DNA of 64,000 bases, from assembly GCA_951406725.2 (NCBI GenBank), contig OX597828.1, forward strand, positions 48,112,001 to 48,176,000, read 5' to 3'. The notes below the pieces were generated by a model. It was not told the DNA's origin and did not search any database. It saw nothing but the letters and a program-made list of their open reading frames with translations. The DNA comes from Octopus vulgaris. Its lineage: Eukaryota. Made by a program: the position numbers and the translations under genes. Below, one piece after another: positions 2,259 to 39,602 of the stretch (within the stretch, counting starts at the first letter, position 1; every line of letters starts with the position of its first letter).

Positions 2259-2748
2259 TCAGGTCATCCCATAAGTTCTGTCCGATTTTACCTTTTTTAA
2301 AATTAAACTAATTAAATATTATTTTATAGAATAATATAATTAAAATTTCTTTGATTAAAACCCTTTCTAACATGGAAGTATCCAAAGAGCATTTAAAGAA
2401 TATAATTTATGAGTACAAAAAAGGAAACTCTGCAGCTGAAGTGACTCGAAACATACACTCAGTTTATGGGAAAGAATGCTTGAATGAAAGAACTTGCAGA
2501 AGATGGCTTGTAAAATTCAGAAGTGGAGATTTCAGCCTTGAAGATGGAGATCGAACAAGACGTCCAGTTGAGTTTGATAAGCTCCTTGAGGCATTACTTG
2601 AAGAAAATGCTACATTACCAGTTGAAGAATTGGCAATAAAACTTAGTTCAAACCATACAACTGTTCATTGTCATCTTCAACAACTTGGAAAGGTTCCTAA
2701 ACTTGGAAAATGGGTGCCTCATGAATTGTCCGAAAGCAATCGCAAATT
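2259..2748 (+). mobile_element. mariner (Tc1/mariner) transposon 5' remnant: left TIR plus truncated transposase N-terminus
   Basis: TA followed by TIR-like TCAGGTCATCCCATAAGTTCTGTCCGATTT. ATG 2372 gives MEVSKEHLKNIIYEYKKGNSAAEVTRNIHSVYG...RRWLVKFRSGDFSLED...WVPHEL (HTH domains and WVPHEL motif). The catalytic domain is absent. Confidence 0.92.
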
Positions 2749-3060
2749 TCCTGGTAATACAATATTTCCCCATGACCAGACATGTTTTTATAAAAGACTG
2801 AACATAAAGGAAATCGCTTGCATGAAGGTGACACTCATTTACAACCATCATGTAATGTCAACGGAAGGAGAGGTTAATACATGTACACACACACATACAA
2901 GTTTCTTTTGGTTTCTATCAACCAAATCCAGTCACTTAGGTTTTGGCAGGCTCAGGGTTATAATAGAAGACACTTGCACAAGGTGCCACAGTCAGACTGA
3001 ACTAGAAACCATATGGTTGGTAAGCAAACTTCTTACCACACAACCACACTTACACACATG

Positions 3061-3106
<46 letters not shown>

Positions 3107-4558
3107 TATACAAATATGCAAGTCAATATTAAAATTAGTAAAGTGTTGAAAAGATTTCAGTCGTTATCAATTGTTTGAGAAAATATGTAGAAGTACTGAA
3201 AAGATATGACGGTTGGAGAGCAGTAGAAAATATTGCTTTAGATGTTATGCAGTAAATATGATACAATGAAAAACAAAAGAATGTAAAAGTGTGGATTGAG
3301 AGTTAAAGAAGGAGAGTGAGTGGTTGAGAATGTTAATCTGCTAAATTTGGTTCAGGTGTAGATCTACAACACTTCAGTGGGTACTTACTGAAGTGGTGGC
3401 TTTTCACAAAGAGTTCTGATCTTGACTTTAGATATTTAGATAATTCACAAAATTATTGACGCTATCTAATATGAGTGACTTTTCAGCTCAAATAAATTAC
3501 AAGTTTAAATCTGATCTCATGAAAGAGATGACAAAGGACTGCGACAAGTGATGAGAAGCTGTGCTGGAGGAGGCTTGTCCAACCCATGAAAGCATGGCAA
3601 AACAGACACTAAATGATACTGATGATGATGATGATGATATATAATACTGTGCATGCTTTATCTAAGTAAGAATGAATGATATTTATGTGTACAAGGGTAA
3701 ATGTTTAGCCAGGCACATATACTAGTATGTGTGCGTGTATGCATATATATATACATGTATTTAATAATGTATATGTATATGTGTGTAATGCATGCATGTA
3801 TATGTATGTGGGCATGAATGTGTGTATCTATATATATGGATGTGTGCATATGTGTGTCTATGTATGTGTCTACGTGTATGTGGAGTATATGTGTCTATGT
3901 ATATGTGTGCCTATGAATATGTATATACGTGTCTAGGCATGTATATGTGTCTATATAACCATGTATGTATGTATGCAGGTGGTGACTATGCTATGAATAT
4001 GTGTACACACTAGTTCAATGCAAACCATGATTATGTGAAATTTTATCTGCTACCCCCATATCTCACCCAACTGACCACACCTCCAGCAGTCATAGACCTA
4101 CCCACCCATCCATCCCTCCATCTTCCCGCCCACTCACCAGATATTACCACAGAGACACAGGCAAACAGACAGACACACACACACACACACAGAGAAAGAG
4201 AGAGTGGGGTGGGATGGTGCAAAAAAAAGGGAAGAGGGGGGGCGAGATAATGGAAACTAGACAATAATAGAGATGGTGTCAAAATCAAATATACAATCTT
4301 GTCTTCCAGTTAATCCTCTTATCCTACCCCCCACCCCACCATCTCCAACTCCATCACCACCTCTACAAAGTGTTAATGAAATGCAGAGGTATAATGAAGT
4401 ATGGTTGTATTTAGTGTGTGTGTGTGTTTACATACACATACATGTGCAAGCTACATACACCACACAGACTCACATTCATAAACAAACTACCATGCATCTG
4501 TGATAAAACCAGCATGGGCTGGAGAGAGGGAGATAGAAAGAGGAAGAGAGAGGGGAAG

Positions 4559-26783: not shown

Positions 26784-27127
26784 TAGTATTATAATCCCTT
26801 ACAAAACCATTTTTTCCAAATTTTAAGACTCCCAAATAAGGGGATCCTTATACATGTTAAAATATGGTAACATAATAACGACAAAGTTATTTCACTAAAG
26901 TTTTCCTTATTTTCAAAATTAAATGACACAAAGGCAGTGCATTTCAAGAGAAATAGTGTAACAAATGGATTAAGGTAAATTTGTCTGTTATTTCTAACAG
27001 GTTGAGGACTGCACAGAAGCTTCTTCACAAGCACATGAGACAAGAAATGAATGATGGACTACAAAAGTATTTGGAAAATTATAAGTGAATCACTTTTCAA
27101 AAAATACAGAAATCACAAGATATTTAC

Positions 27128-28599
27128 CTGATGGGGTGGTCGCCACAAGCCTTTGGTCTTTCCATCATTGAAACCCATTTTTCATCGTAGCTAAAGAGAG
27201 CCAAGTCGAGGTAGGGACTACTGCTGAACGACTGAGCACTGATTGGTAGTTGAGCCAGAAGACGTTTCACAGCTTCTGTGTGTCCACCAAACTTAGCATT
27301 GATTATAGTCTGTTTGAACCGATGTTGCATCTGTCGAGCATAGATGTTACTTGACGCTGAGCACGTGAACTGCATATCACTGTGCAGCATGGCATTGCGA
27401 AAGACATCACAGAAATTTTCAAAAAGTTCTAGGAGGTTTTCAGAAGTATTCTCATAGACGGCTAAAACTTCAGTAGTGATCATGTTATAGACAACAAAAA
27501 AGGATGGTTGTGAATTGGGGTCTGAGACACGCAAAGTGACCACCTCTTCACTTGCATATTTAATGAGTAGATGTTCGCTATCAATTAATTGCATCTTCCA
27601 CATTCGTAAACTTTTAAACTGATCAAAATATTGATAAAACTTACGCAATTCATATATAGAGTCCATACGTTTGGCACGTTCATAGAGGAAAACTAGAAGA
27701 CGGTGCTTGAGGGAGTTGATGGTGGTTTCCGTCATGGGCCGGATTTGGTGCACCTGAGTTTTTGAATCTAAACCTAGATGAAGTATACTTTCATCATCGT
27801 CGAAACAAAACCGACCTATACTACGGACATCAACAAAATGACCATCTTTAGTAATCTGGAAGATATGAATGGTTTGGTGTTGGACAGAGAGTACAGCAAG
27901 GGTATTCTTATACAAATAGAGTCCTTGGTTGTGCGAGAGGAAAATTTTATCACATTTAAATTGGCGAGTATCACACAAAAGACCAGTCTCCAGTTCCACA
28001 ATGTGTAAGCAATAGTCCTCGAGTGGACAACGAGGATTCGGTGGCACAGATTCATTGTTTCTGTAGACATCGAAAAAAAATGGGTAAGGGTCTTCTGGAA
28101 CAAAAATTGCTGAACCGACTATTACATACTTACCATCGTCAGTAAACAGGCTACACTCTCGGTTTAAATGTTCTCCATTAGTAGCCACTACAGTTACTTG
28201 TTTTTGCGTGAAGAAACGTTCAAAGAGTTTGCTATGAAGATAATGTAACCGATTGTCATAAACTGACGGAGTGTGGTCACCATTGAAATGCCTCAAAAGG
28301 TCAGCAGCAGCTGCTGGACCATTGAATTCATAAATTTCTAGAGATGTCTGTGTGGCAGAGAAAGCAATGAAATAATGACCATCAGGAGAGAATTTTCTCA
28401 GAAAACATGGGGGTTTTTCCACATTGACAATGGTGAAATTGGGGAAGACATTGGTGTAGAACATACGAGACTGATTGAACTGGACTCCTGGACGACCAAA
28501 GTTAATCTGCCGGTCAAAGACACGGTGTACGATGCTTTGGTTGGGTATCTTCCTTGGCTTGATTTCATCTGCATCATTGTCCCTGGGTGTGTCAAACAT
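27128..28599 (-). CDS. DET1: DET1 homolog (de-etiolated 1; COP1/DDB1-CUL4 E3 ligase adaptor), first coding exon, about aa 1-491; C-terminal exon not found in window
   Basis: 491-aa ORF with DET1 signature segments ([68 protein letters not shown]-type segment here [45 protein letters not shown]). Ends at phase-2 donor ATCAG|GTAAAT (27128/27127); the ORF's TAA lies inside the donor. Confidence 0.96.
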
Positions 28600-28728
28600 A
28601 GTGCTAACACTGAGAGAATCACCTTCAGATTACAGGGAGTCTATACAAACAAACTGTCTTTAAACTGAATACCATTGTTACGGGTTGAAGCTCACAACAT
28701 CACACTTCAGTTCATTTCAATTGAAGTT
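28600..28728 (-). other. DET1: DET1 5' UTR portion of the exon, preceded by a splice acceptor
   Basis: Minus strand reads ctaattttgtgtattttatttgttgcag|aacttc: branch-like CTAAT, T-rich tract, AG at 28730-28729. ATG at 28599. Confidence 0.7.
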
Positions 28729-28788
28729 CTGCAACAAATAAAATACACAAAATTAGTCAAGCAGATAAAATATCAGAACAATATATAT

Positions 28789-28843
<55 letters not shown>

Positions 28844-29038
28844 CACACACACCTGTTTCCATGTTTTTACAGAACGTTGAATAACACTGCTTGAATGACA
28901 GTAATACTCATTTACAGGTGCCATGAAATGTGAAGACAAGGAGACATGAACACAAATATGATGAGCTTCTTCCAATTTTCATCTATCTAATACACTTACA
29001 GGGCTTTGGCCAGCCTGGGGTTATAATAGAAGACACTT

Positions 29039-29143
29039 TATTTACATTTGACGGATATATGTGCTCATCTTGTTTGTCGCCAGCCTTCATCAGGTGTCCT
29101 GGGAGAATTTTGAACCTGGGTTCTCATTCCTAATATTTTCCAA

Positions 29144-29175
<32 letters not shown>

Positions 29176-29177
29176 TG
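29039..29177. mobile_element. short retro-insertion (probable Penelope-like fragment) with 12-bp TSD inside an old family A SINE
   Basis: TAGAAGACACTT at 29027-29038 and 29178-29189; (ATT)n end; minus strand carries CACCTGATGAAGGCTGG. Confidence 0.6.
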
Positions 29178-30894
29178 TAGAAGACACTTGCCTAAAATGC
29201 CATACAGTGGGACTGAACTCAAAATTGCATGGCCGGGAAGCAAACTTCTTAATGACACAGCTGAGAGAGGGTACTTGCCCTTGGTGATCAGAATAATCTT
29301 GGAGCAGTAGAGTTCTTTAATTGGTACTATGTGGCTGTTGCTTAAATTGTTAATTTCTATTTCATGTAAACCTTCTTTGCTCTGTATTGTATTGCCCTCT
29401 GTGTTTTGTGTCCTTGAGCTAATAAAGATTATTTTTATTTTCTAGCTCTTTATGTTCTGAGTTTAAATCTTAGAGGTCAACTTTGCCTTTCAACCCTTCA
29501 GGTCAATAAAATAAAATACCCGTCAAGTACTGGAGTTGATGGTATCAACTTATTCCCCCTCCCCTCAAAACTACTGGTAAATATACTACGCAGCATTTCT
29601 TCTGGATCTTTATATTCCGAGTTCAAATTCTGCTGGGGGCTACTTTGTCTTTCGTCTTTCCAGGTTTGATAAGATAAAGTACCAGTCAAACACTGGTGTC
29701 AGTGTAAACCCCTCCCAATAAAAAATTGCTGTCCTTGTGCCAAAAGTGGAAACAACTATTATTGTACTTATTTAGGGTAGTAGATTGGTAGAATTCATAG
29801 AGAAAGAAAATTTCTTTGCAGCATTTGGTTATGCCTCACTACATTCTGAGTTCAAATCATGTTGAGGTAAACATCATCTTTCAGGGGTCTATAAAATACA
29901 GCACTAGTTAATTAATCAACTGTTTCCTCCACCATACATGCACACACACAAACAAATTTGAGGATTTGTGTCAATGATAGAAATCATTAATATTGCTGAG
30001 TAGCCAAAACACAACAGCTGTACATATATTACTGCAACATCTGCACATGTCTGCTATTTAGACAATGCACATTACCTTTTCCATCTGTGGCCAATTCTAT
30101 TTGTGTTAGTATCTAAAGTTTCATGCCAATCTCAAAAGCTTCAAAATCACATGGTGGACTAGCAATCCACATCTAAACCACAAATGCAACCACTGTGCAC
30201 AATTATTCAGACCAGACCATAATATGCACAGTTTATCTGCACAGTTATTGGAACTACCATATATTCAGAACTTAATTAATTAGAGACATCGTTATATATT
30301 AAAGGTCTTGTATTCAGTAGATAGTTTTAATGTTAATTATTATGTTTGGCAGAAGTCATCATCAACATCATAGGAAACAGTGCGAATCTCACCAATAAAC
30401 TAATTTATAATGAGAAAATTTCCCCTAAAGATGACAGCTTTCTACCCACCCACTTCTGCTTAAAAGGATAAAGAAATGCAAAAATAAATAAATGAATATT
30501 AAATAAATAAAAATTAAGATAAATAAATGAATAAATAAGTCACAAGGTTTCTAATTCAGCCAGAAGTATTATGTTCTGTTCTCAAACTGGGAATATATTA
30601 AGAGCTTTTGCTCTGCACCCCATGCAACAGCTGCCACTTCACAATTGAATAAGGAGTGAGAGTAGGAAAGAGAAAATAGGTCAGCAGTGTCTTGTAAATG
30701 TTAAGCAAATTTCAAACTGCCCAAACAACAACAACAACAACAACAACAGAACACACCTTTACATGATAATGAAGAGAGAAAGAGTGCAGACAACTGAATA
30801 TTTAACACCAGTCACGGTTCAAGAGTTTTGACAATCGCAATAGAAATGTGTGTGTGTGTGTGTGTGTGTGTGCACACTGTACAAAAATCACCAG

Positions 30895-31120
30895 TTCATA
30901 GCTGCTTTTCCATGCTTGCATGAATTGGATGGGTCTTTTCCAACACAGTAACTGACCATTTGACAAAGCCAACCTCTTGAGATCAACTTTTAACATCTCT
31001 TCTAATGTCTCTTTTGGTCTTCCTCCACCACAAGTGCTTTCCAACTGGATTATTTGGCATGTCTTAACCCAACAATTATCCTTCCTTTGCAGCCTATATC
31101 TATGCCAGCTCAATCCACTC
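30895..31120 (-). mobile_element. RTE-clade LINE 3' end remnant
   Basis: Translates SWHRYRLQRKDNCWVKTCQIIQLESTCGGGRPKETLEEMLKVDL, similar to the RTE WxGHVxRM...GRGRPRKTW C-terminus, followed by the CATGCAAGCATGGAAAAG tail. Confidence 0.7.
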
Positions 31121-31730
31121 TCTTAAACATGACGGCTCACCCCCTTCTATAATCAGTCTTTTTCTTGCCTCTTTTGTGCTCTACTGTTAATACAAACTAA
31201 CATCACATTACTTATGGGATATCTTTACTTCATATCTTTTCCAATTTTCACAGGCATGGCTGTGTGATAAGAAGTTTACATCCTGACGACATGATTCCAG
31301 GTTCAGTCCCACTGCATGGTACCTTGGGCAAGTGCCCTCTACCATATACTCAGGTCAACCACAGCCTTGAGAGTGGATCTGGTAGATGGAAACTGAAAGA
31401 AGCTTGTTGTATGTGTGTGATTGTCCCCTATCACTACTTGATAACTGGTGTTGGTGTGTTTACACCTCCATAACTTAGCAGTGTGGCAAAGAAACTGATA
31501 GAATAATTTTCAGGGTTTAGAAAAAAACAAAAAACAAGAGTACTGAGGTTGATTAGTTTGACTAAAATTCTTCAAGGTGGTGCCTCAGTATGGCTGCAGT
31601 CTGATAACTGAAGCAAGTAAAAGAATGGAAGAAATATTCTTTGTATTCGATGCCCATATTTCAACTTCATGCAACATTGTACTTAATACCCAAGCATCAG
31701 ACACTGTATGTGTGTGTGTGTGTGTGTGTA

Positions 31731-31765
<35 letters not shown>

Positions 31766-32566
31766 ATGTGTGTGTATGCATGCACATACATAATGAACCA
31801 TATACTCTACAACAGGTATTGAGTACTCCTTCGTGCATTCATGAATGAATGAACAAAGGAGTACTCAATACATGTTGTGTTCTATTGAGCTTTGTAACTT
31901 AACAGTTCAACAAACAGAAGCTGATAATATACATGACAGACTGAAATACTAGAGTTACTATGAACATCTAGACTCTGGAAGGCAGTACTCCAGTCTGGCC
32001 ACAACTCTTAATGATTGAAACCATTAAAAGAAGAGCACACACACACACACAATCATTTTTTAATATACACAAGTGAATAACATATATATATATATATATG
32101 AGTGGGTGTCTTTTCTTTCTCGCTTTTATTGCCCATCCTTATTCATTTTCTGTTTAACTGGTGAGCTTCTATCTCAGCCAAGTTATAATGCAGTATCACA
32201 GTACCACCAAACCACTGTCAGGATATGAAAATATATGTTTTTATTTAGGTGGCAGGTATTTTGGGTGGGGCAAAATCTGCTGGATTGCTAGGCAAGAGTC
32301 ATGAAAATGTATATAAATTTATTCACACACAACTAGCAACACATTTTCCCACTCAATGAATATGCATACATACATACAAACATGACTACATGTAACCATA
32401 CAAACATGACTATATACATACATGTAGCTTGTAACAATACATAAACATAACCAACCACATGGTTAATGTAAAGTTAGTCGTAGAAAATGCTAAGGTCTGT
32501 CCTCCTAAGTACAAAGTGAAAGTGTATCATCCAGTGCAGACCGCATTTTTCTGATAATGTCTTTAA

Positions 32567-32787
32567 CCCTTTAGCATTTAAACCGGTCATATCCGACCAA
32601 AAGTATTCTGCTTGTTTTATGTTCAAACTGGCCAGATCTGGTCTCTCACACCAACCCTACAATATCGTTTTAAAAATTAACAGCTACCTCATCAAAATCT
32701 CATAGCTACAAGATAATGCATGATTAGTTCAAAGCAATGTGGATAAAAAAGCATTAATTTTAGCAGAATAATGTGAACACTAAAGGG
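32567..32787. mobile_element. piggyBac-like MITE, intact 221-bp copy
   Basis: TTAA|CCCTTTAGCATT...AACACTAAAGGG|TTAA. Confidence 0.88.
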
Positions 32788-33469
32788 TTAAGTAGGGCTG
32801 TGTGGTTTTAAGAAGTCTTTTTGTAACCATGGTGTTTTGGTGTTGATCACACTGAGCGACACCATGGGCAATTATCTCCTACCACAGGTGGAAATGGTAT
32901 AGAAGTCTGCCTAAAGAGCTGATCCTATTCTTGGCTGGTAGATATAATTTGTCTCCTCGTTTAACGTTACCACCTGGCCCATGGTTGCCATCAGCAGATT
33001 TCATTCTGTTGTGGGCATTTGGGCCAGGTCTCGGGTCTGAGAATAGCTTCTTTCATTCCTCCCAACAATTTTGGAGGCCATGAAAATGTCATGGACACTC
33101 ACACATGCACCACCATCATTTAACATTCGTTTGAGCTGGCAAGATAGAGAGCTGCACAATGCTCCAATTGTCTGTTTTGGCATGGTTTCTACAGCTGAAT
33201 GCCCTGCTTAATGCCAACCACTTTACAGGTTGTACTGGGTGCTTTTTATGTGGCACCTGCACAGAAAAAAAGTTGAGGTGCTAGGTATGAGCAATACTGT
33301 CAGTGTCTATCATAGCCTCTTGTAGTTAAGAGTGGTGTCACTGTCTGACTGGGTAACGAGTGCATTTTGGGAGTGGATCCATTCACTTGAGTCATGTCTA
33401 TCACATTTTCACAAAGAAATTTCTTTTTTCCTCCCACCTAACTGATTCAGTCATCCACAAATAACTACT

Positions 33470-34650
33470 TTTAATATTGGTATAAAGCCAAAAATTTTTA
33501 TGAGAGGGGAGGAGTTAAGTTGAATAAATTAACTTCAGTATTTGACTGGTATCTTATTTTATCAACCCTCCCAAAAGACAAAATGCAGAATAGATACTGG
33601 TGGGATTTGAACTCAGAATGTAATGTGCTTGAACAAATGCCTCAAAGCATTTTGTCTGATGCTCGAATGATTCTGTCACCTTGTCATCTTAACAAAACAA
33701 AGTCAAGAGAAATTGTCACCAAGCATTTTTTTTTGGCATGCTAACAATTCTGCCAGCTCACTGCAATAAAAATAACAATAATAATAATAATAATAATAAT
33801 AATAATCCTTTCTACTAAAGCCACAACACCTGAAATTTGGGGGAGCTGGATAGTCAATTACATCGACCCCAGTGTCTCACTGGTACTTAATTTATTGACC
33901 CCCAAAAGAATGAAGGACAAAGTCGACCTCAGTGGAATTTGAATCAGAAAGTATAAACAGACAAAAATGTTAATAAGTATTTTGCCCAGCATGCTAACGA
34001 TTCTGCCAGCTCAGTCGTTTTTACTGAAAGCACGAAGCCTGAAATTTGGTGGGGAGGGAAAGTTGGATACATCGATTCCAGGACTCAACTGGTACTTATT
34101 TTATCAACCCCGAAAGTAGGAAAAGCAAAGCCGACCCTGGCGGAATTTAAATTCAGAACATGAAAACAGATGAAATGCTGCCAAGCATTTTGCCCAGCAT
34201 ACTAACAATTCTTGCTGCCCTTTTTATTTTTTAACAGCAAGTCCTGAAACTTTTGAGGGAAAAGGTAAGTCAGTTATGTTGGCCCCAGTACTTAACTAGG
34301 TAATTAATTTATTGACCCTGAAAAGATGAAAGGCAAAGTGGACCTCAGTGGAATTTGAACTCAGAACGTAAAGATGGATGATGAGCTGCTGAGGATTTTG
34401 TCCAGTGTATTAACAATTCTGCTAGCTCACTGCCATGATGATGATGATGATAATGATAACAAGTTTCAAATTTTGGCACAAGGCCTGCAACTTTAGGGGA
34501 AGGGATAAGTGGATTAAAATGACCCCAGTACTCAGCTAGTACTTATTTATTCAACTCTAAAAAGATGAAAGACAATGTTGACCTTGATGGAATTTGAACT
34601 CAGAACCTCTAGCTGATGACATGCCACTAAGCTGTTTTTTCTGGTGCCTT
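33470..34650 (-). mobile_element. head-to-tail array of about 5 Meta-domain SINEs
   Basis: Repeated cores separated by (AAT)n/(GAT)n. Confidence 0.8.
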
Positions 34651-35285
34651 AACAACAACAATAACTATAATGGTAACATACTTGAAAAATCTTTAAGATA
34701 TTGAACTTACCAGATATAATTACTTCTATAAGAATAAACTAAGTAAAAAGACCAAAAAAAAACCAACAAAAAGTTTAGAACAACAACAAACTTCTTCCTT
34801 GATATCATGGCTTCCTAATGACAGGAAACTAAGAAGCACTAGCACCTCAACAACAATAGCAACATCATTCTAGGGGAAAATTTGTTAAACTAATTAAATA
34901 TTGCACTGTTTCTATCAGAGGATGTGAGGAAATCATTGGCAGAGTGGAGCCCAAGAAATTAATATAGATTGCTATCTTCAATCAATAGCATAAAAATAAA
35001 TGCTTGTATATACATACATGTATATATATATATATTTTTTTTTGCTAGTTTATTTTGTCTCTTTGTCTTCTCTCCTGGTGTTATATGAACATTTAATGTG
35101 GTTTTAGAGTCAGGTTTTGGCTGCTATTTCCAGCGTGGTGGTATCTCTTAGATACCCTAAATTACAATTTTAATAATAATTATTACCGTTGAAGGATTTT
35201 ATTCCCATGCTGGCCACCTGATAAGATCGGTATTTAAATAACGATCTTATCCTTATTTATTTATATATATATATATATATACACA

Positions 35286-35496
35286 CCGGAGTAAACACAT
35301 AAATGTGAAACAAGGTGGAAAAAAGAGTACTCAAATACCAGTGGTAGAGTAATATGCTTCATTTAAAGCAAACCTGTTACTCTGAGTTTCCCGTTGCTGT
35401 TCATCGGACAGTTTTTGCTAGCAAAAACTGTCCGATGAACGGCAACGGGAAACTCAGAGTAACAGGTTTGTTGAATTTTCTGCTGCTTTAAATAAA

Positions 35497-35497
<1 letters not shown>
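35286..35497. mobile_element. Penelope-like inverted-repeat remnant containing a 102-bp palindrome (35369-35470)
   Basis: Palindrome centred on GCTAGC with 1 mismatch; embedded in (TA)n; carries hammerhead-like motifs. Confidence 0.65.
35428..35465 (+). ncRNA. minimal type I hammerhead-ribozyme-like motif (a mirror copy lies on the minus strand at 35374-35411)
   Basis: CTGT-CCGATGA-ACG GCAA CGG-GAAA-CTC A GAG-TA^ACAG: stem I CUGU/ACAG, core CCGAUGA (U4C), GCAA-capped stem II, GAAA, self-complementary stem III, GUA cleavage triplet. Confidence 0.65.
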
Positions 35498-35539
<42 letters not shown>

Positions 35540-35609
35540 TATGTAGATATTTGAATACATACAAATATAAATTCAGATATGCACTGATATATATGTGTGT
35601 GTGTGTATA

Positions 35610-35676
<67 letters not shown>

Positions 35677-35716
35677 CGGCGATTATAATTAATTTTATTG
35701 TATATCATCTATCTTT

Positions 35717-35770
<54 letters not shown>

Positions 35771-36675
35771 ATATACAGAGAGAGAGAGAGCGCAGAACAC
35801 AGTGTGTGTGTATATATATACATAAATACATACACTTGTGTGCGTACACACACACACAAATGTAAGCACAGTGTCTCCGATGGCCCAATTAGATAATATT
35901 TGGAATTCATAAGCATTAAATTCTTTTCTTCGCCTTGTCAATACAATCTAGACTACTACACAGCAATACAGTGTAAGGGCAAAGTCTGCAGTAAAGTTTC
36001 ACACACAGTGGGCACGATCCAGCTGGCTGTTACTGGACCCATATGAGGAGAGAGAGAGAGAGAGAAAGGAAGGAAGAGAGTAGGGAGATGACATAGTACA
36101 GCTAAGGAAACACCACTGTAATCCATTAACTTCAATATTGGGAGGAAGCCCTGTTCCAACCTACACATCGATATAGTGTATGACCATAAGTTGCCAAAGA
36201 TCCATAAACATCACAGTACTAGACATTGTGTCGGTCTCCCTCATTCATGAAAACTATGAGCACAACTTCCAGAACAAATCAACGAAAAAAAAAAAAAGTT
36301 TAATACAATGTGTTTGGCTGGAAGAGAATTTTACCAAGCAGTTGTTTGAAAGTAATGAATTAGTTGAGGACACAATTTATTTTATTTATATGCTGGGATG
36401 AAGGGGGGGGGGGGGGCTTTACTTCAGAAAGAATTTTGGAAAGATTCAAAGAATAAAATCAGCAACAGGAAATTACTTATTGACAAATGAAATCAACTGT
36501 AATTTCAGAATCTATTGTGAACTGTCCTGTTAGTCTTGTTGCCACAATGTCGAATCCCCGAAACTGCCACTCCATTGGTTATGATGAGACGAGGATTCCA
36601 ACTGATTTGATTAACGGAACAGCTTGCTCATGAAATTAACGTGCAAGTGTCTGAGCACTCCACAGACATGCATAC

Positions 36676-36901
36676 CTATTTCTTTATTACCCACAAGGGG
36701 CTAAACACAGAGGGGACAAACAAGGACAGACATAGGTATTAAGTCGATTACATCGACCCCAGTGCGTAACTGGTACTTTATTTATCGACCCCGAAAGGAT
36801 GAAAGGCAAAGTCAACCTTGGCGGAATTTGAACTCAGAATGTAGCGGCAGACGAAATACGGCTAAGCATTTCGCCCGGCGTGCTAACGATTCTGCCAGCT
36901 C
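36676..36901 (-). mobile_element. young Meta-domain SINE nested in an older SINE
   Basis: Near-identical to 7763-7994 and 1470-1698; interrupts a family-C-like 3' region. Confidence 0.85.
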
Positions 36902-37779
36902 TTAGATTCAGTATGGTACAGAATGTGACAAGACTGGCCCTTTTGAAACACAGACACCACTTGCTTTTGCCAGCTGTGTAGGCTGGAGTAATGTGAAATA
37001 AGTGTCTTGCTCAAGGACTCAGCATGCTGCAAAGGTATTGAACTCACAGTTTTAGTCTTGAGTGGAATACCCTAACCACTTAGCCATGAGCCATCATAAC
37101 TCTTGAAAAGTGTGCTTTAGAAAGACCAAATTAAGTTTGAAATAAAATATAGAGTCCTGTACAAAGAACTGATTGAACCCTTTTACTGTGTGTGATTATC
37201 TAATTAATTTTGTTCAGTTGCTGCTAAATTAACAATAAAAGCAGTAAATTGGAGTAGGTAGCGCTAGATAACTTAATTATTTGTTTAAGTTAGTGTTATT
37301 GGATTTAATACATTGATCATTGCTAAACGAGCCTCAACAGCTAATCCAAAATGCATTGGAGTACCATCAGTAGTAATTGTGTTATTTTCATAGGAATTCG
37401 CTGAAAATAAAGGATCACTAAGGGGAAATTTCATTACCAAATAGTAGAAGGGTTTGTAACAAGGCATACAATTTAAGGCCTGTTTAAGGTTGCCACGAGC
37501 CTACTATTAGGTGGACTTGAAACTGATGACAATAGCCTCTTCATATTGATTTAAATCGCTTTCTTGCAGTGTGTACACTGTTCAAAATAGTTTGACAGCT
37601 AAAAATAATGACATCATAAAATCTATCCTGGTGTCTCTTTCCTAACTCAAATATTAACAAGCTATACATCAATCGACAGCCCATGTTTGGAGCTTCCAAA
37701 TGTGTCATGTAACATTTTTATCAGTGGTCAGTACTGATCAGTAGATGCAAAAGAACAATAAAGTATACATTTTCTTTCA

Positions 37780-38561
37780 AGGTAAAAACCTCTCAGAAAA
37801 CATAATGAAATTGAATGGGAAATCATTTGTCAGGTCATTTTCACCCCAAGACGAGTGCAAGAAGAAAGAATTATTCTATCGAGTACAAGAAAGGAATCCC
37901 GGAGGAATCACTGGGCAAGAATCTTGCTGTTTTCTGCAAAGAAAAGAATTTGGATATCCAAATGGTCAAAAAATAGTGAGTAGACTACGTTAAACTCAGT
38001 CAACAAGTGGACAAGGGAAAATGCAAAGAAACGCAATTATGGATCAGGCAAGAGATCGTAACTTGGGTGACGAATTCATGGAACAAAATCACAGACAGCT
38101 ATGTTGCCAATGCACTACAAGCAGGCTATATGGACAAGAGCTTCTCATTCAATGAGACCTCTATTGCTCAACATGAGAGACTGGGGATGAAAGTTCTGCA
38201 GGAATTGGAGTCACATGAAAACTCTGCAGGAATTTTAGAATCCAGTGATTTGCAGAACAATGACATAATTGTTTCTGAATAAATTGTTGTTAATGAGTTT
38301 CTGTGCAAAAGAACACGTAAGTCATCAAGTAAATGTAGATTGTTTTCCATAGTTTCTGTTTAATAAATTTCTCGTAATAAATCGTCAAGTAGATCATTTT
38401 TCATAATTTCTGTATATTTAGTAATTTTGTAATTTTCTATTTCATAATGTTGTTTTTAGTACACGAGAAAAAAAATGAACTCCCCTGAAAATAAGCTCTA
38501 ATACGACATTTTGGAGTGGAAAATCAATATAAGCCTGGTCTTACTTTTGAGGAAAAAATGG
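37780..38561 (+). mobile_element. pogo/Tigger-like (DDE_1) transposon remnant with right TIR
   Basis: IRQEIVTWVTNSWNKITDSYVANALQAGY resembles the DDE_1/CENP-B-like C-terminal helix. The end reads ATAAGCCTGGTCTTACTTTTGAGGAAAAAATGG|TA (pogo-type TIR plus TA). Confidence 0.6.
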
Positions 38562-39602
38562 TATCTACAAATGAGAGTTAGAAATGTTAACAAAACTATA
38601 AGGACCAGTAGGAAGTGACCCTCATCCCCCACCCCCACAAGAAGCTAAAATGTGCTGGAAGCACTAGGAGAGTGTTGTTGGGAAACCATACGAAAATGGG
38701 ACATATGAGTGAAAGGTAGTCCTTTTGAGCCATCTTAGTGGGCAATAACTAATACTTGTCCAACCCATGCCAGTATAGAAAGCAGAAATCAAAGGATGAA
38801 AATGATAGAAGTGCAGATAAAATAAGTATTATGTTACAATCCACGAAGGCAGTGCGTATTTACGGCCTTTCTGTATCATACATGTAAAAGGTCTTCATTT
38901 TGAACCATATCAAAATCTGAAGAATCTTCATTCTTGGCTACCTTGTTACCATCTCTACAGCCGAAGGACCCTCATTCTCTCTTCTCGTGTTTCTCCATAA
39001 TCACAGTTTTACACCAAGGGCCCCCGTCTCCTCACATTTACAAGAGCACTATTTCTGCCACAGTCAACAGAGGGCCAGATGGTGAAAGCGCCATAAATGA
39101 AATACCTTTCGAGTTGGGTGTGTTGTATAGGGGGTGGGTGGGTGGAGAGTAAGTGGGAGAGTGGGGGATGATGTTTGAACAATTAATAGCAGTATGTCTG
39201 TGGTTCCATGTGCGTAAATCTGCATACATAGGTGAGTATAATCGTGCATGTTTGCATGTGTATACAGGGTGTGTGTGTGTGTGTGTGTGTACGTAGTCTC
39301 TGGTTGCAAAACAAAAGTGAAGAGGCGTAGAGGGGAACAATGGTTGATTTTAAAAATTAGAAATGGTACAGTGGTATTGGAAAGACATCCATATCCTCCT
39401 CATCAGTTAACAACAATAACTCCTGCTAACTCCCAGCATAACGGCTACAGACATGGCAGTAGGAGAGGAAGGGGAAGAAAGGAGCAAAGGGGGAGGAAAG
39501 AGGAGAGGAGAGAAAGGAGGGAGGAGAGCAAAGAGGGCAGGTGGGAAATACTGCTGGAGGATACAAGGAACAATGGAACAAGAGAGTGAATGTGTGTATG
39601 TG

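What the first reader, a model, noticed from the sequence alone, without database searches (positions are those of the whole stretch)
35369..35470. 102-bp palindrome encoding a minimal hammerhead-like ribozyme on both strands
Seen: a near-perfect palindrome (1 mismatch, centre GCTAGC) whose right arm reads CUGU-CCGAUGA-ACG(GCAA)CGG-GAAA-CUC-A-GAG-UA^ACAG. All hammerhead elements are in the right order, with a U4C core change, an A.G opposition at the base of stem II, and a self-complementary stem III with a 1-nt loop. Established: Penelope-like retroelements carry such minimal hammerheads, which can cleave as dimers, and often form inverted terminal repeats. Inference: a transcript from either strand contains one ribozyme plus its antisense, so the long hairpin would lock it off unless unwound or A-to-I edited. 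It probably lies in the upstream intron of DET1, so it is a candidate conditional self-cleavage switch or dsRNA source.
Basis: partly seen in the sequence, partly recalled or inferred. Interest (0 to 1): 0.8.

Follow-up and report, generated by a model that had tools for sequence, protein, structure and literature searches.

The report
Head-to-head stub of a Penelope-like retrotransposon
The palindrome is the centre of a 212-bp insertion made of two ends of a Penelope-like retrotransposon joined head to head in a TA repeat, one of about 200 identical junctions in this genome; each arm carries the element's hammerhead-like motif, which is predicted not to fold here, so it is likely an ordinary transposon remnant and not a switch for DET1.

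Summary
The palindrome and the hammerhead parse are real, but they belong to a transposon. 35286-35497 is two 5'-truncated ends (pLTR plus 5' leader) of a Hydra-clade Penelope-like element (PLE), joined at CTAG inside (TA)n. The same junction occurs at 57 loci (C4 version) and 146 loci (U4 version). Full-length copies with a 727-aa RT/GIY-YIG ORF carry the motif in their pLTRs. It matches published Hydra-clade hammerheads (stem I, stem III and cut site as in coral Hydra-2_Amil). U4C is a subfamily trait (over 1,600 exact copies), not local decay; the youngest subfamily has canonical U4. In this copy the ribozyme is predicted to be inert: single arms misfold, the hairpin buries both, and the arm on DET1's strand has lost a stem II pair. 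Copies decay about evenly across core, stems and flank. The family gives a mechanistic lead. All 22 of 22 head-to-head insertions have one long and one short 3' end. 34 of 79 arms stop 35-49 nt upstream of the cut, at an initiator-like CCATTCT, and 0 of 100 start at the cut. The stubs are likely two run-off cDNAs, one per nicked strand, joined by microhomology. Verdict: new member of a known kind, modest interest.

The parts
35286..35497 (.). Whole insertion: two head-to-head, 5'-truncated ends of a Hydra-clade Penelope-like element (C4/G11.1 subfamily), 212 bp
   Evidence: Aligned with 29 other genomic copies sharing both ends; 212 nt against 229 nt in a near-intact copy; matches pLTR and leader of full-length copies
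35286..35419 (-). Left ('long') arm: hammerhead-like motif, 3' flank with a 16-nt deletion (35369/35370), and the 71-nt tail
35286..35356 (-). 71-nt tail, present on one arm only; in full-length copies it is the leader between the pLTR hammerhead and the ORF
   Evidence: short end +84, long end +155 from the putative +1
35374..35411 (-). Hammerhead-like motif on DET1's strand; U4C, stem II broken by the change at 35398; predicted cut between 35378 and 35377
   Evidence: P(stem I) 0.002 alone
35418..35421 (.). Self-complementary CTAG at which the two arms are joined; lies 3-6 nt downstream of the A of the element's initiator-like CCATTCT
   Evidence: the initiator consensus is recalled
35420..35497 (+). 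Right ('short') arm, ending at AATAAAG; one T lost at 35466
35428..35465 (+). Hammerhead-like motif (type I, minimal): U4C, A.G at 10.1/11.1, 2-bp stem II with GCAA loop, palindromic stem III; predicted cut between 35461 and 35462
   Evidence: homologous to rows of File S2 of PMC8557442; P(stem I) 0.005 alone
35262..35285 (.). Left (TA)n target tract ending in CACA
   Evidence: (TA)n flanks on nearly all aligned copies
35498..35535 (.). Right (TA)n target tract
27126..28729 (-). Context only: large DET1 exon (acceptor at 28729/28730), 6.6 kb from the insertion
   Evidence: Pfam Det1 E 1.5e-161; one contig in each of 4 runs spans it

Best explanation
The palindrome is the junction of two 5'-truncated ends of a Hydra-clade Penelope-like retrotransposon inserted head to head in a (TA)n tract, likely made in one insertion event and likely inert as a ribozyme. 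Shown: family membership, copy numbers, (TA)n targets, one long and one short 3' end per insertion, matching variants on both arms, and a pile-up of 5' ends 35-49 nt upstream of the hammerhead cut site. Inferred: the element's protein nicks both strands of (TA)n and starts reverse transcription at two internal sites of its RNA (+84 and +155), one per strand. When the template is the 5' end of a transcript that begins at the pLTR initiator, both cDNAs run off after about 80-155 nt and are joined through the self-complementary CTAG. The hammerhead is part of the pLTR carried along. Predicted: a read-through RNA, probably DET1 pre-mRNA, forms a roughly 50-bp duplex that cannot self-cleave and may be an ADAR substrate until the intron is degraded.
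For: Full-length copies: L031 has the C4 motif at both ends around a decayed ORF. All 20 loci fetched hold long ORFs, with the U4 motif in their pLTRs. The natural 727-aa ORF has RWK, DKT, YRDD, CxCX5C, a GIY-YIG-like VY...YTG, CxxC and CxH, the Hydra-clade marks in PMC8557442 section 11. Counts: 786 exact C4/G11.1 arms, 869 older C4 arms, 3,422 U4/A11.1 arms; 57 and 146 exact junctions. Both arms of a locus share variants: 73 against a shuffle mean of 15.5, 0 of 5,000 shuffles reaching it, in 59 of 84 loci with both arms intact. 22 of 22 head-to-head pairs among the first 79 hits have one long and one short end. 34 of those 79 arms end at -35 to -49, one ends between -50 and -77, 13 end further up and 31 run past the fetched edge. 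Genome-wide, only 1,516 equal-length patterns reach -52, against 3,422 that start at -34. Other palindromic 4-mers at -56 to -65 attract no junctions. PMC11167929 (parts 1-2 of 4 read) shows in vitro that a PLE protein cuts and extends both strands, starts RT at two internal sites that define the tail, and inserts without hammerhead cleavage. Folding.
Against: No transcription start was mapped. The initiator reading of CCATTCT rests on a recalled consensus, and the edge also coincides with the 5' foot of extended helix I (-43). Arm-to-arm gene conversion could also make arms share variants. Some short copies may be copied from earlier short copies. PMC3846280 (passages) prefers self-priming on an antisense template for such junctions. 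In the BLAST-biased set of 45 C4 loci, core sites differ between arms somewhat less than flank sites (1.5% against 2.7%, 6 against 37 events). Pfam gave no family for the 727-aa ORF; the Atlas gave unnamed clusters first, then GIY-YIG and RVT_1 clusters at 0.96-0.97. Cleavage was not assayed, and the PAc hammerhead needs its protein to cut, so folding predictions are not final.
Confidence: 0.85

Rival explanations
1. The palindrome is a co-opted conditional self-cleavage switch in DET1 pre-mRNA, released by unwinding or A-to-I editing.
For: Probably intronic in DET1. The motif is homologous to real PLE hammerheads. A U4C viroid variant keeps some in vivo function, and 2-bp stems II occur in nature (PMC3088659). 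Octopus has very high hyper-editing (PMC5625713 passages).
Against: The arm on DET1's strand has a broken stem II and misfolds even alone. Stem III needs a second sense copy, and the window holds no other family copy. About 200 identical junctions exist, and 25 of 84 examined have one arm decayed or deleted. Single minimal PLE hammerheads did not cleave in vitro (PMC4209133).
Confidence: 0.03
2. The palindrome is a non-autonomous mini-element (MITE-like or SINE-like) that arose once and spreads as a unit.
For: Identical ends and centre at many loci. An internal promoter could let short copies be transcribed (PMC2377424 passages).
Against: Every subfamily haplotype appears on both arms. Junctions vary from -35 to -49 and grade into spacers of up to 5 kb. 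No terminal inverted repeat spans both ends: the tail is on one side only.
Confidence: 0.07
3. The second arm is made by fold-back self-priming of a single cDNA or antisense RNA at CTAG, not by joining two cDNAs.
For: CTAG is self-complementary and the modal junction. Both arms share variants. Self-priming was proposed for PLE junction palindromes (PMC3846280).
Against: Either arm can reach further 5' (L012, L014, L024, L154 against L022, L027, L028). In L031 the tail is on the short inverted copy while the other copy is full length, which one fold-back cannot give. Many junctions have no palindrome.
Confidence: 0.15

Closest known systems
Hydra-clade Penelope-like elements (Craig et al. 2021, PMC8557442), e.g. 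Hydra-2_Amil, Hydra-1_Obim, Penelope-13_HM
   Same: C-terminal EN with CxCX5C linker, RWK, DKT; (TA)n targets; inverted 5'-truncated copy; one-sided tail; hammerhead with CTGT/ACAG stem I, ACTC-N-GAGT stem III and A at the cut, as in Hydra-2_Amil; mismatch at the base of stem II, as in many HM rows
   Different: A different family from Hydra-1_Obim (other hammerhead sequence); unit 3,355 nt against generally under 3 kb; tail 71 nt against 30-40; C4 in the older subfamilies, whereas all 26 Hydra rows of File S2 begin CTGA; stem II of only 2-3 bp
Minimal PLE hammerheads (Cervera and De la Pena 2014, PMC4209133)
   Same: Type I topology, short stem I, palindromic stem III that needs a dimer; pairs on opposite strands already noted (about 100-700 bp apart)
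   Different: Stem II is shorter than the 7-8 bp described, G10.1-C11.1 is absent, the core has U4C, and the arms abut directly
PAc (Poseidon, Anolis; Frangieh et al. 2024, PMC11167929)
   Same: Two internal RT start sites bounding a tail; AT-rich targets; no ends found at the hammerhead cut site
   Different: Other clade; there the start sites lie inside the ORF, here in the leader before the first ATG (+222); pairing of one site per strand and run-off stubs are not reported in the parts read
Non-LTR retrozymes (bioRxiv 10.64898/2026.07.22.740005)
   Same: Non-coding, hammerhead-bearing derivatives of PLE pLTRs
   Different: Retrozymes are head-to-tail tandems; this is a head-to-head pair in which each ribozyme is covered by its antisense

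Membership tests
Penelope-like element (EN+) | Single ORF with RT and C-terminal GIY-YIG endonuclease in full-length copies | tested here: met
   727-aa ORFs; YRDD at 360, VY...YTG at 598; Atlas neighbours carry GIY-YIG and RVT_1; Pfam itself gave no hit
Penelope-like element (EN+) | pLTR or tandem structure, inverted 5'-truncated copy, one-sided tail | tested here: met
   L081, L084, L097, L031; 22 of 22 pairs with one tail
Hydra clade | RWK, DKT, CxCX5C linker, CxxC and CxH around the EN E and N residues | tested here: met
   against section 11 of PMC8557442
Hydra clade | Insertion into (TA)n | tested here: met
Hydra clade | Phylogenetic placement of the RT | not tested
   No tree built; motifs compared by eye with the supplement's alignment
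Hammerhead ribozyme (type I, minimal) | Order of stems I-III, GAAA, NUH cut site | tested here: met
   rows of File S2; across subfamilies N7 and the N of the GNRA loop vary while the stem II pairs stay
Hammerhead ribozyme (type I, minimal) | Core CUGANGA | tested here: not met
   CCGAUGA in both arms; met in the young subfamily
Hammerhead ribozyme (type I, minimal) | Paired 10.1-11.1 and a stable stem II | tested here: not met
   A.G plus 2 bp on the right arm, 1 bp on the left; P(stem II) 0.001 or less; A-U plus 2 bp in older haplotypes
Hammerhead ribozyme (type I, minimal) | Rfam model match | tested here: not met
   No hammerhead among 57 matches at E<=10 in 33000-38000
Hammerhead ribozyme (type I, minimal) | Self-cleavage | not testable with these tools
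   Indirect only: 0 of the first 100 young copies begin at the cut
Non-LTR retrozyme | Head-to-tail tandem units, each with a hammerhead | tested here: not met
   Head-to-head pair; no other copy in the window
MITE | Terminal inverted repeats at both ends, spread as one unit | tested here: not met
   Tail on one end only; variable junctions; shared arm haplotypes

The most novel reading that the evidence does not exclude
These stubs are a fossil readout of the unsolved PLE insertion mechanism: a dimeric RT/endonuclease primes one cDNA on each nicked strand from two fixed internal RNA sites, and 'strong-stop'-like run-off products ending at the pLTR transcription start are fused head to head. 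This seeds the genome with hundreds of self-contained dsRNA hairpins. In the same family, several successive master lineages spread with a U4C, misfolding hammerhead before a canonical-core lineage took over. That would be a natural test of whether PLE ribozyme cleavage matters in vivo.
Probability: 0.5. Interest if true: 0.5.

Novelty: new member of a known kind. Interest (0 to 1): 0.3.

Why it matters
For this locus, little: it is one of about 200 identical junctions and shows no sign of a host role. For the family, three things are useful. Intact 727-aa copies make it a candidate active Hydra-clade element for biochemistry. The strict one-long-one-short rule and the sharp 5' edge bear on how PLE inverted structures form, which PMC8557442 names as open. 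The C4 and U4 subfamilies offer a natural comparison for the open question of what PLE hammerheads do. If transcribed, such stubs would be ready ADAR substrates in an animal group known for heavy editing; that was not tested.

Tried and rejected
Rfam scan: no hammerhead hit; mir-745, mir-981, mir-2032 and mir-2237 scores lie far below their gathering thresholds and reflect a generic hairpin. Assembly artefact: rejected. U4C as local decay: rejected. U4 in the older haplotypes (52 hits) is about what CpG decay gives (869 C4 hits, 5 of the first 100 with the mirror G-to-A change). Pile-up of 5' ends at the cut site: not found. One search gave 12 hits, about half small deletions with upstream sequence intact, but it is blind to joins ending in TA. 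Searches gave 4,625 against 4,266; the 7 discordant hits among the first 100 were all point changes or internal deletions. Naiad clade: rejected, since the endonuclease is C-terminal. RNA: no holder is on record as RNA. Depth over 35280-35703 comes from contigs of other copies, which carry the T and the 16 nt that this copy lacks, so it says nothing about this locus. No A-to-G row lay in the palindrome, but contigs drop variants. The upstream DET1 exon was not located. Bacterial promoter and terminator scan: irrelevant here. In one search the loop position was mis-indexed and L001 mis-projected; both were corrected. Pfam found nothing for six L031 ORF pieces or the intact ORF. Earlier findings: three look-ups returned nothing. 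Literature searches showed no report of this family, of U4C in a PLE hammerhead or of run-off stubs; Repbase, Dfam and subscription journals were not searched, and bioRxiv supplements were not seen.

Full report
Observation. The palindrome is real: 52-nt arms, 98% complementary, overlapping at GCTAGC, -95.4 kcal/mol, z = -16.4. The hammerhead parse of the right arm is correct as written, with the predicted cut between 35461 and 35462. Rfam finds no hammerhead there. The host genome is 2.8 Gb in 227 contigs.

It is part of a dispersed repeat. A search with 35330-35495 gave 843 candidates (40 scored). Thirty aligned copies share the ends CCGG and AATAAAG, and nearly all sit in (TA)n. The window's copy spans 35286-35497. 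Against a near-intact copy it has lost 16 nt in the left arm and one T in the right, which is why the palindrome looks only 102 bp long. The exact 38-nt arm occurs 786 times and the exact 28-nt junction at 57 loci.

The parent element. One inverted pair 3.6 kb apart (L031) encloses a decayed ORF. Searching with one of its pieces returned 150 scored matches of 4,435 candidates, many in open frames of 727 aa. All 20 loci fetched from these hold long ORFs with the hammerhead motif in pLTRs, in tandem and inverted arrays. The natural ORF of L092 has RWK, DKT, YRDD, CNCKNESSC, VY...YTG, CRLC and CRH. These are the marks of the Hydra clade in PMC8557442 (passages, section 11 and parts of the supplement read). 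Pfam gave no hit; Atlas neighbours carry GIY-YIG and RVT_1. File S2 of that paper lists Hydra-2_Amil with ctgt, ctgatga, actc-g-gagt, a, acag, the same stem I, stem III and cut site. Many Hydra rows have a U.U mismatch at the base of stem II. Hydra-1_Obim has a different hammerhead, so this is another family. Inverted truncated copies, one-sided tails and (TA)n targets are described there as typical, and palindromes at inverted junctions in PMC3846280 (passages).

The hammerhead across subfamilies. The intact subfamily reads CTGATGA with A at 11.1 (3,422 exact arms) and forms the same CTAG junction at 146 loci. Older haplotypes read CCGA(C/T)GA, loop G(C/G)AA, T or C at 11.1 (869). U4 versions of those number 52, about the rate of the mirror CpG change (5 of the first 100). 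So U4C was carried by several master lineages and is not decay of this copy. Arm-to-arm difference is 3.4% in the window's class (25 loci) and 0.8% in the U4 class (12 loci), so U4 is the younger. All 26 Hydra rows of File S2 have U4; whether the young lineage reverted or retained it is not resolved. Variation falls on N7, the N of the GNRA loop and 11.1, which fits a maintained structure in master copies, but the flanks are about as conserved.

Is this copy a working ribozyme? Probably not. Alone, the right arm has P(stem I) 0.005 and the left 0.002, against 0.79 for a young arm; in the whole element it is about 1e-46 on both strands. An intact C4/G11.1 arm scores 0.14 and a C4/U11.1 arm 0.95: C4 with G11.1 opens a competing helix. 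DET1 lies on the minus strand (Pfam Det1). Contigs from four runs span 27126-28729 and carry 223-294 more nt at the 5' side that were not among the pieces shown within 26800-39500 (tables cut, RNA status guessed), so the insertion is probably in the 5' intron. That transcript would carry the left arm, with one stem II pair left, after its own antisense. Stem III needs a second sense copy, and the window has none. Single minimal PLE hammerheads did not cleave in vitro and dimers did so weakly (PMC4209133, parts 1-2 of 4). U4C lowers activity considerably, though a viroid tolerates it (PMC3088659, passages and section 8). Of 84 parsed palindromic loci (85 examined), 25 have one arm under 85% intact. 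In the 14 junction-picked loci with both arms, differences are 4.0% in the core, 4.3% in stems, 4.1% in the flank and 18.6% at CpG. In all 45 C4 loci, a set biased by BLAST ranking, they are 1.5%, 2.2% and 2.7%, a slight core deficit that I cannot exclude.

How the palindrome forms. (1) The two arms of a locus share variants: 73 against 15.5 in shuffles, 0 of 5,000 reaching it; C4 loci alone 24 against 4.9 (59 loci). (2) The first 79 hits, taken without regard to their ends, contain 22 head-to-head pairs with spacers from 8 nt to 5.4 kb; all 22 have one long (tailed) and one short end. Among 85 palindromic loci, 47 were long-short, 8 had one end unclassified, 30 had an arm not recognised, and none was long-long or short-short; 30 of these loci were picked with a long-short query. 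(3) Of the 79 arms, 34 end 35-49 nt upstream of the cut, one between 50 and 77, 13 further up, and 31 pass the fetched edge. Genome-wide, 1,516 patterns of equal length reach -52. The edge is the A of CCATTCT (-47), which fits a recalled initiator consensus; Drosophila Penelope has an internal TATA-less promoter in its pLTR (PMC2377424, passages). Palindromic 4-mers at -56 to -65 draw no junctions, so CTAG alone does not explain the edge. (4) None of the first 100 young copies begins at the cut. PMC11167929 (parts 1-2 of 4) shows that a PLE protein cuts and extends both strands, starts at two internal sites that bound the tail, and needs no hammerhead cleavage. The simplest reading is two cDNAs, one per nicked strand, from +84 and +155. 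When the template is the transcript's own 5' end they run off at +1 and are joined at CTAG. Steps 1-4 are shown; the start site, the priming order and the joining are inferred. Fold-back and mini-element models are weaker but not fully excluded.

Verdict. Identity as a Hydra-clade PLE stub is secure. Ribozyme activity at this locus is unlikely, and a host switch has about 3% odds. The novelty is a new family member with a U4C lineage and a clean mechanistic signature. My searches showed no report of these points, but Repbase, Dfam, subscription journals and bioRxiv supplements were not seen. bioRxiv 10.64898/2026.07.22.740005 (part 1 of 5 and passages) and PMC5625713 (passages) were used for context only.

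Noticed in passing
G000, loci L081-L100 (e.g. L092:1248-3431): Many intact 727-aa Hydra-clade ORFs with near-identical pLTRs, in tandem and inverted arrays: the family looks recently or currently active.
   Followed up: partly
window 27126-28729 (-): DET1 has one 1.6-kb exon holding the start codon and most of the coding sequence; its upstream exon (223-294 nt) was not among the pieces shown within 26800-39500.
   Followed up: partly
window 33550-34610 and 36670-36903: At least six diverged copies of a roughly 210-bp SINE-like repeat, several spaced 208-209 nt apart; 36552-36975 has by far the highest contig depth in all four runs.
   Followed up: no
L092:1074-1110 and family pLTRs: The hammerhead core and stem II lie at about +18 to +34 from the putative start, where downstream core-promoter elements sit (recalled). 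A promoter role could help explain why the motif is conserved and C4 tolerated.
   Followed up: no
family 3' ends: Both fixed 3' ends are followed in the element by TA-like letters (CATAT after AATAAAG, TCTA after ACTCCGG), suggesting microhomology with the (TA)n target; 8 of about 120 short ends keep CATAT. The short end follows an AATAAA.
   Followed up: partly
L006 / L101, G000:C1:4678502-4679405: A C4-type and a U4-type palindrome lie about 760 bp apart, suggesting repeated targeting of the same TA-rich spot.
   Followed up: no
window 2330-3178 (+): ORF resembling a mariner/Tc1 transposase N-terminal part (recalled resemblance).
   Followed up: no
L031 3' part and L081-L100: About 1 kb between the ORF stop and the pLTR is much more variable among copies (65-77% identity) than the pLTR and the ORF, and rich in simple repeats.
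   Followed up: no
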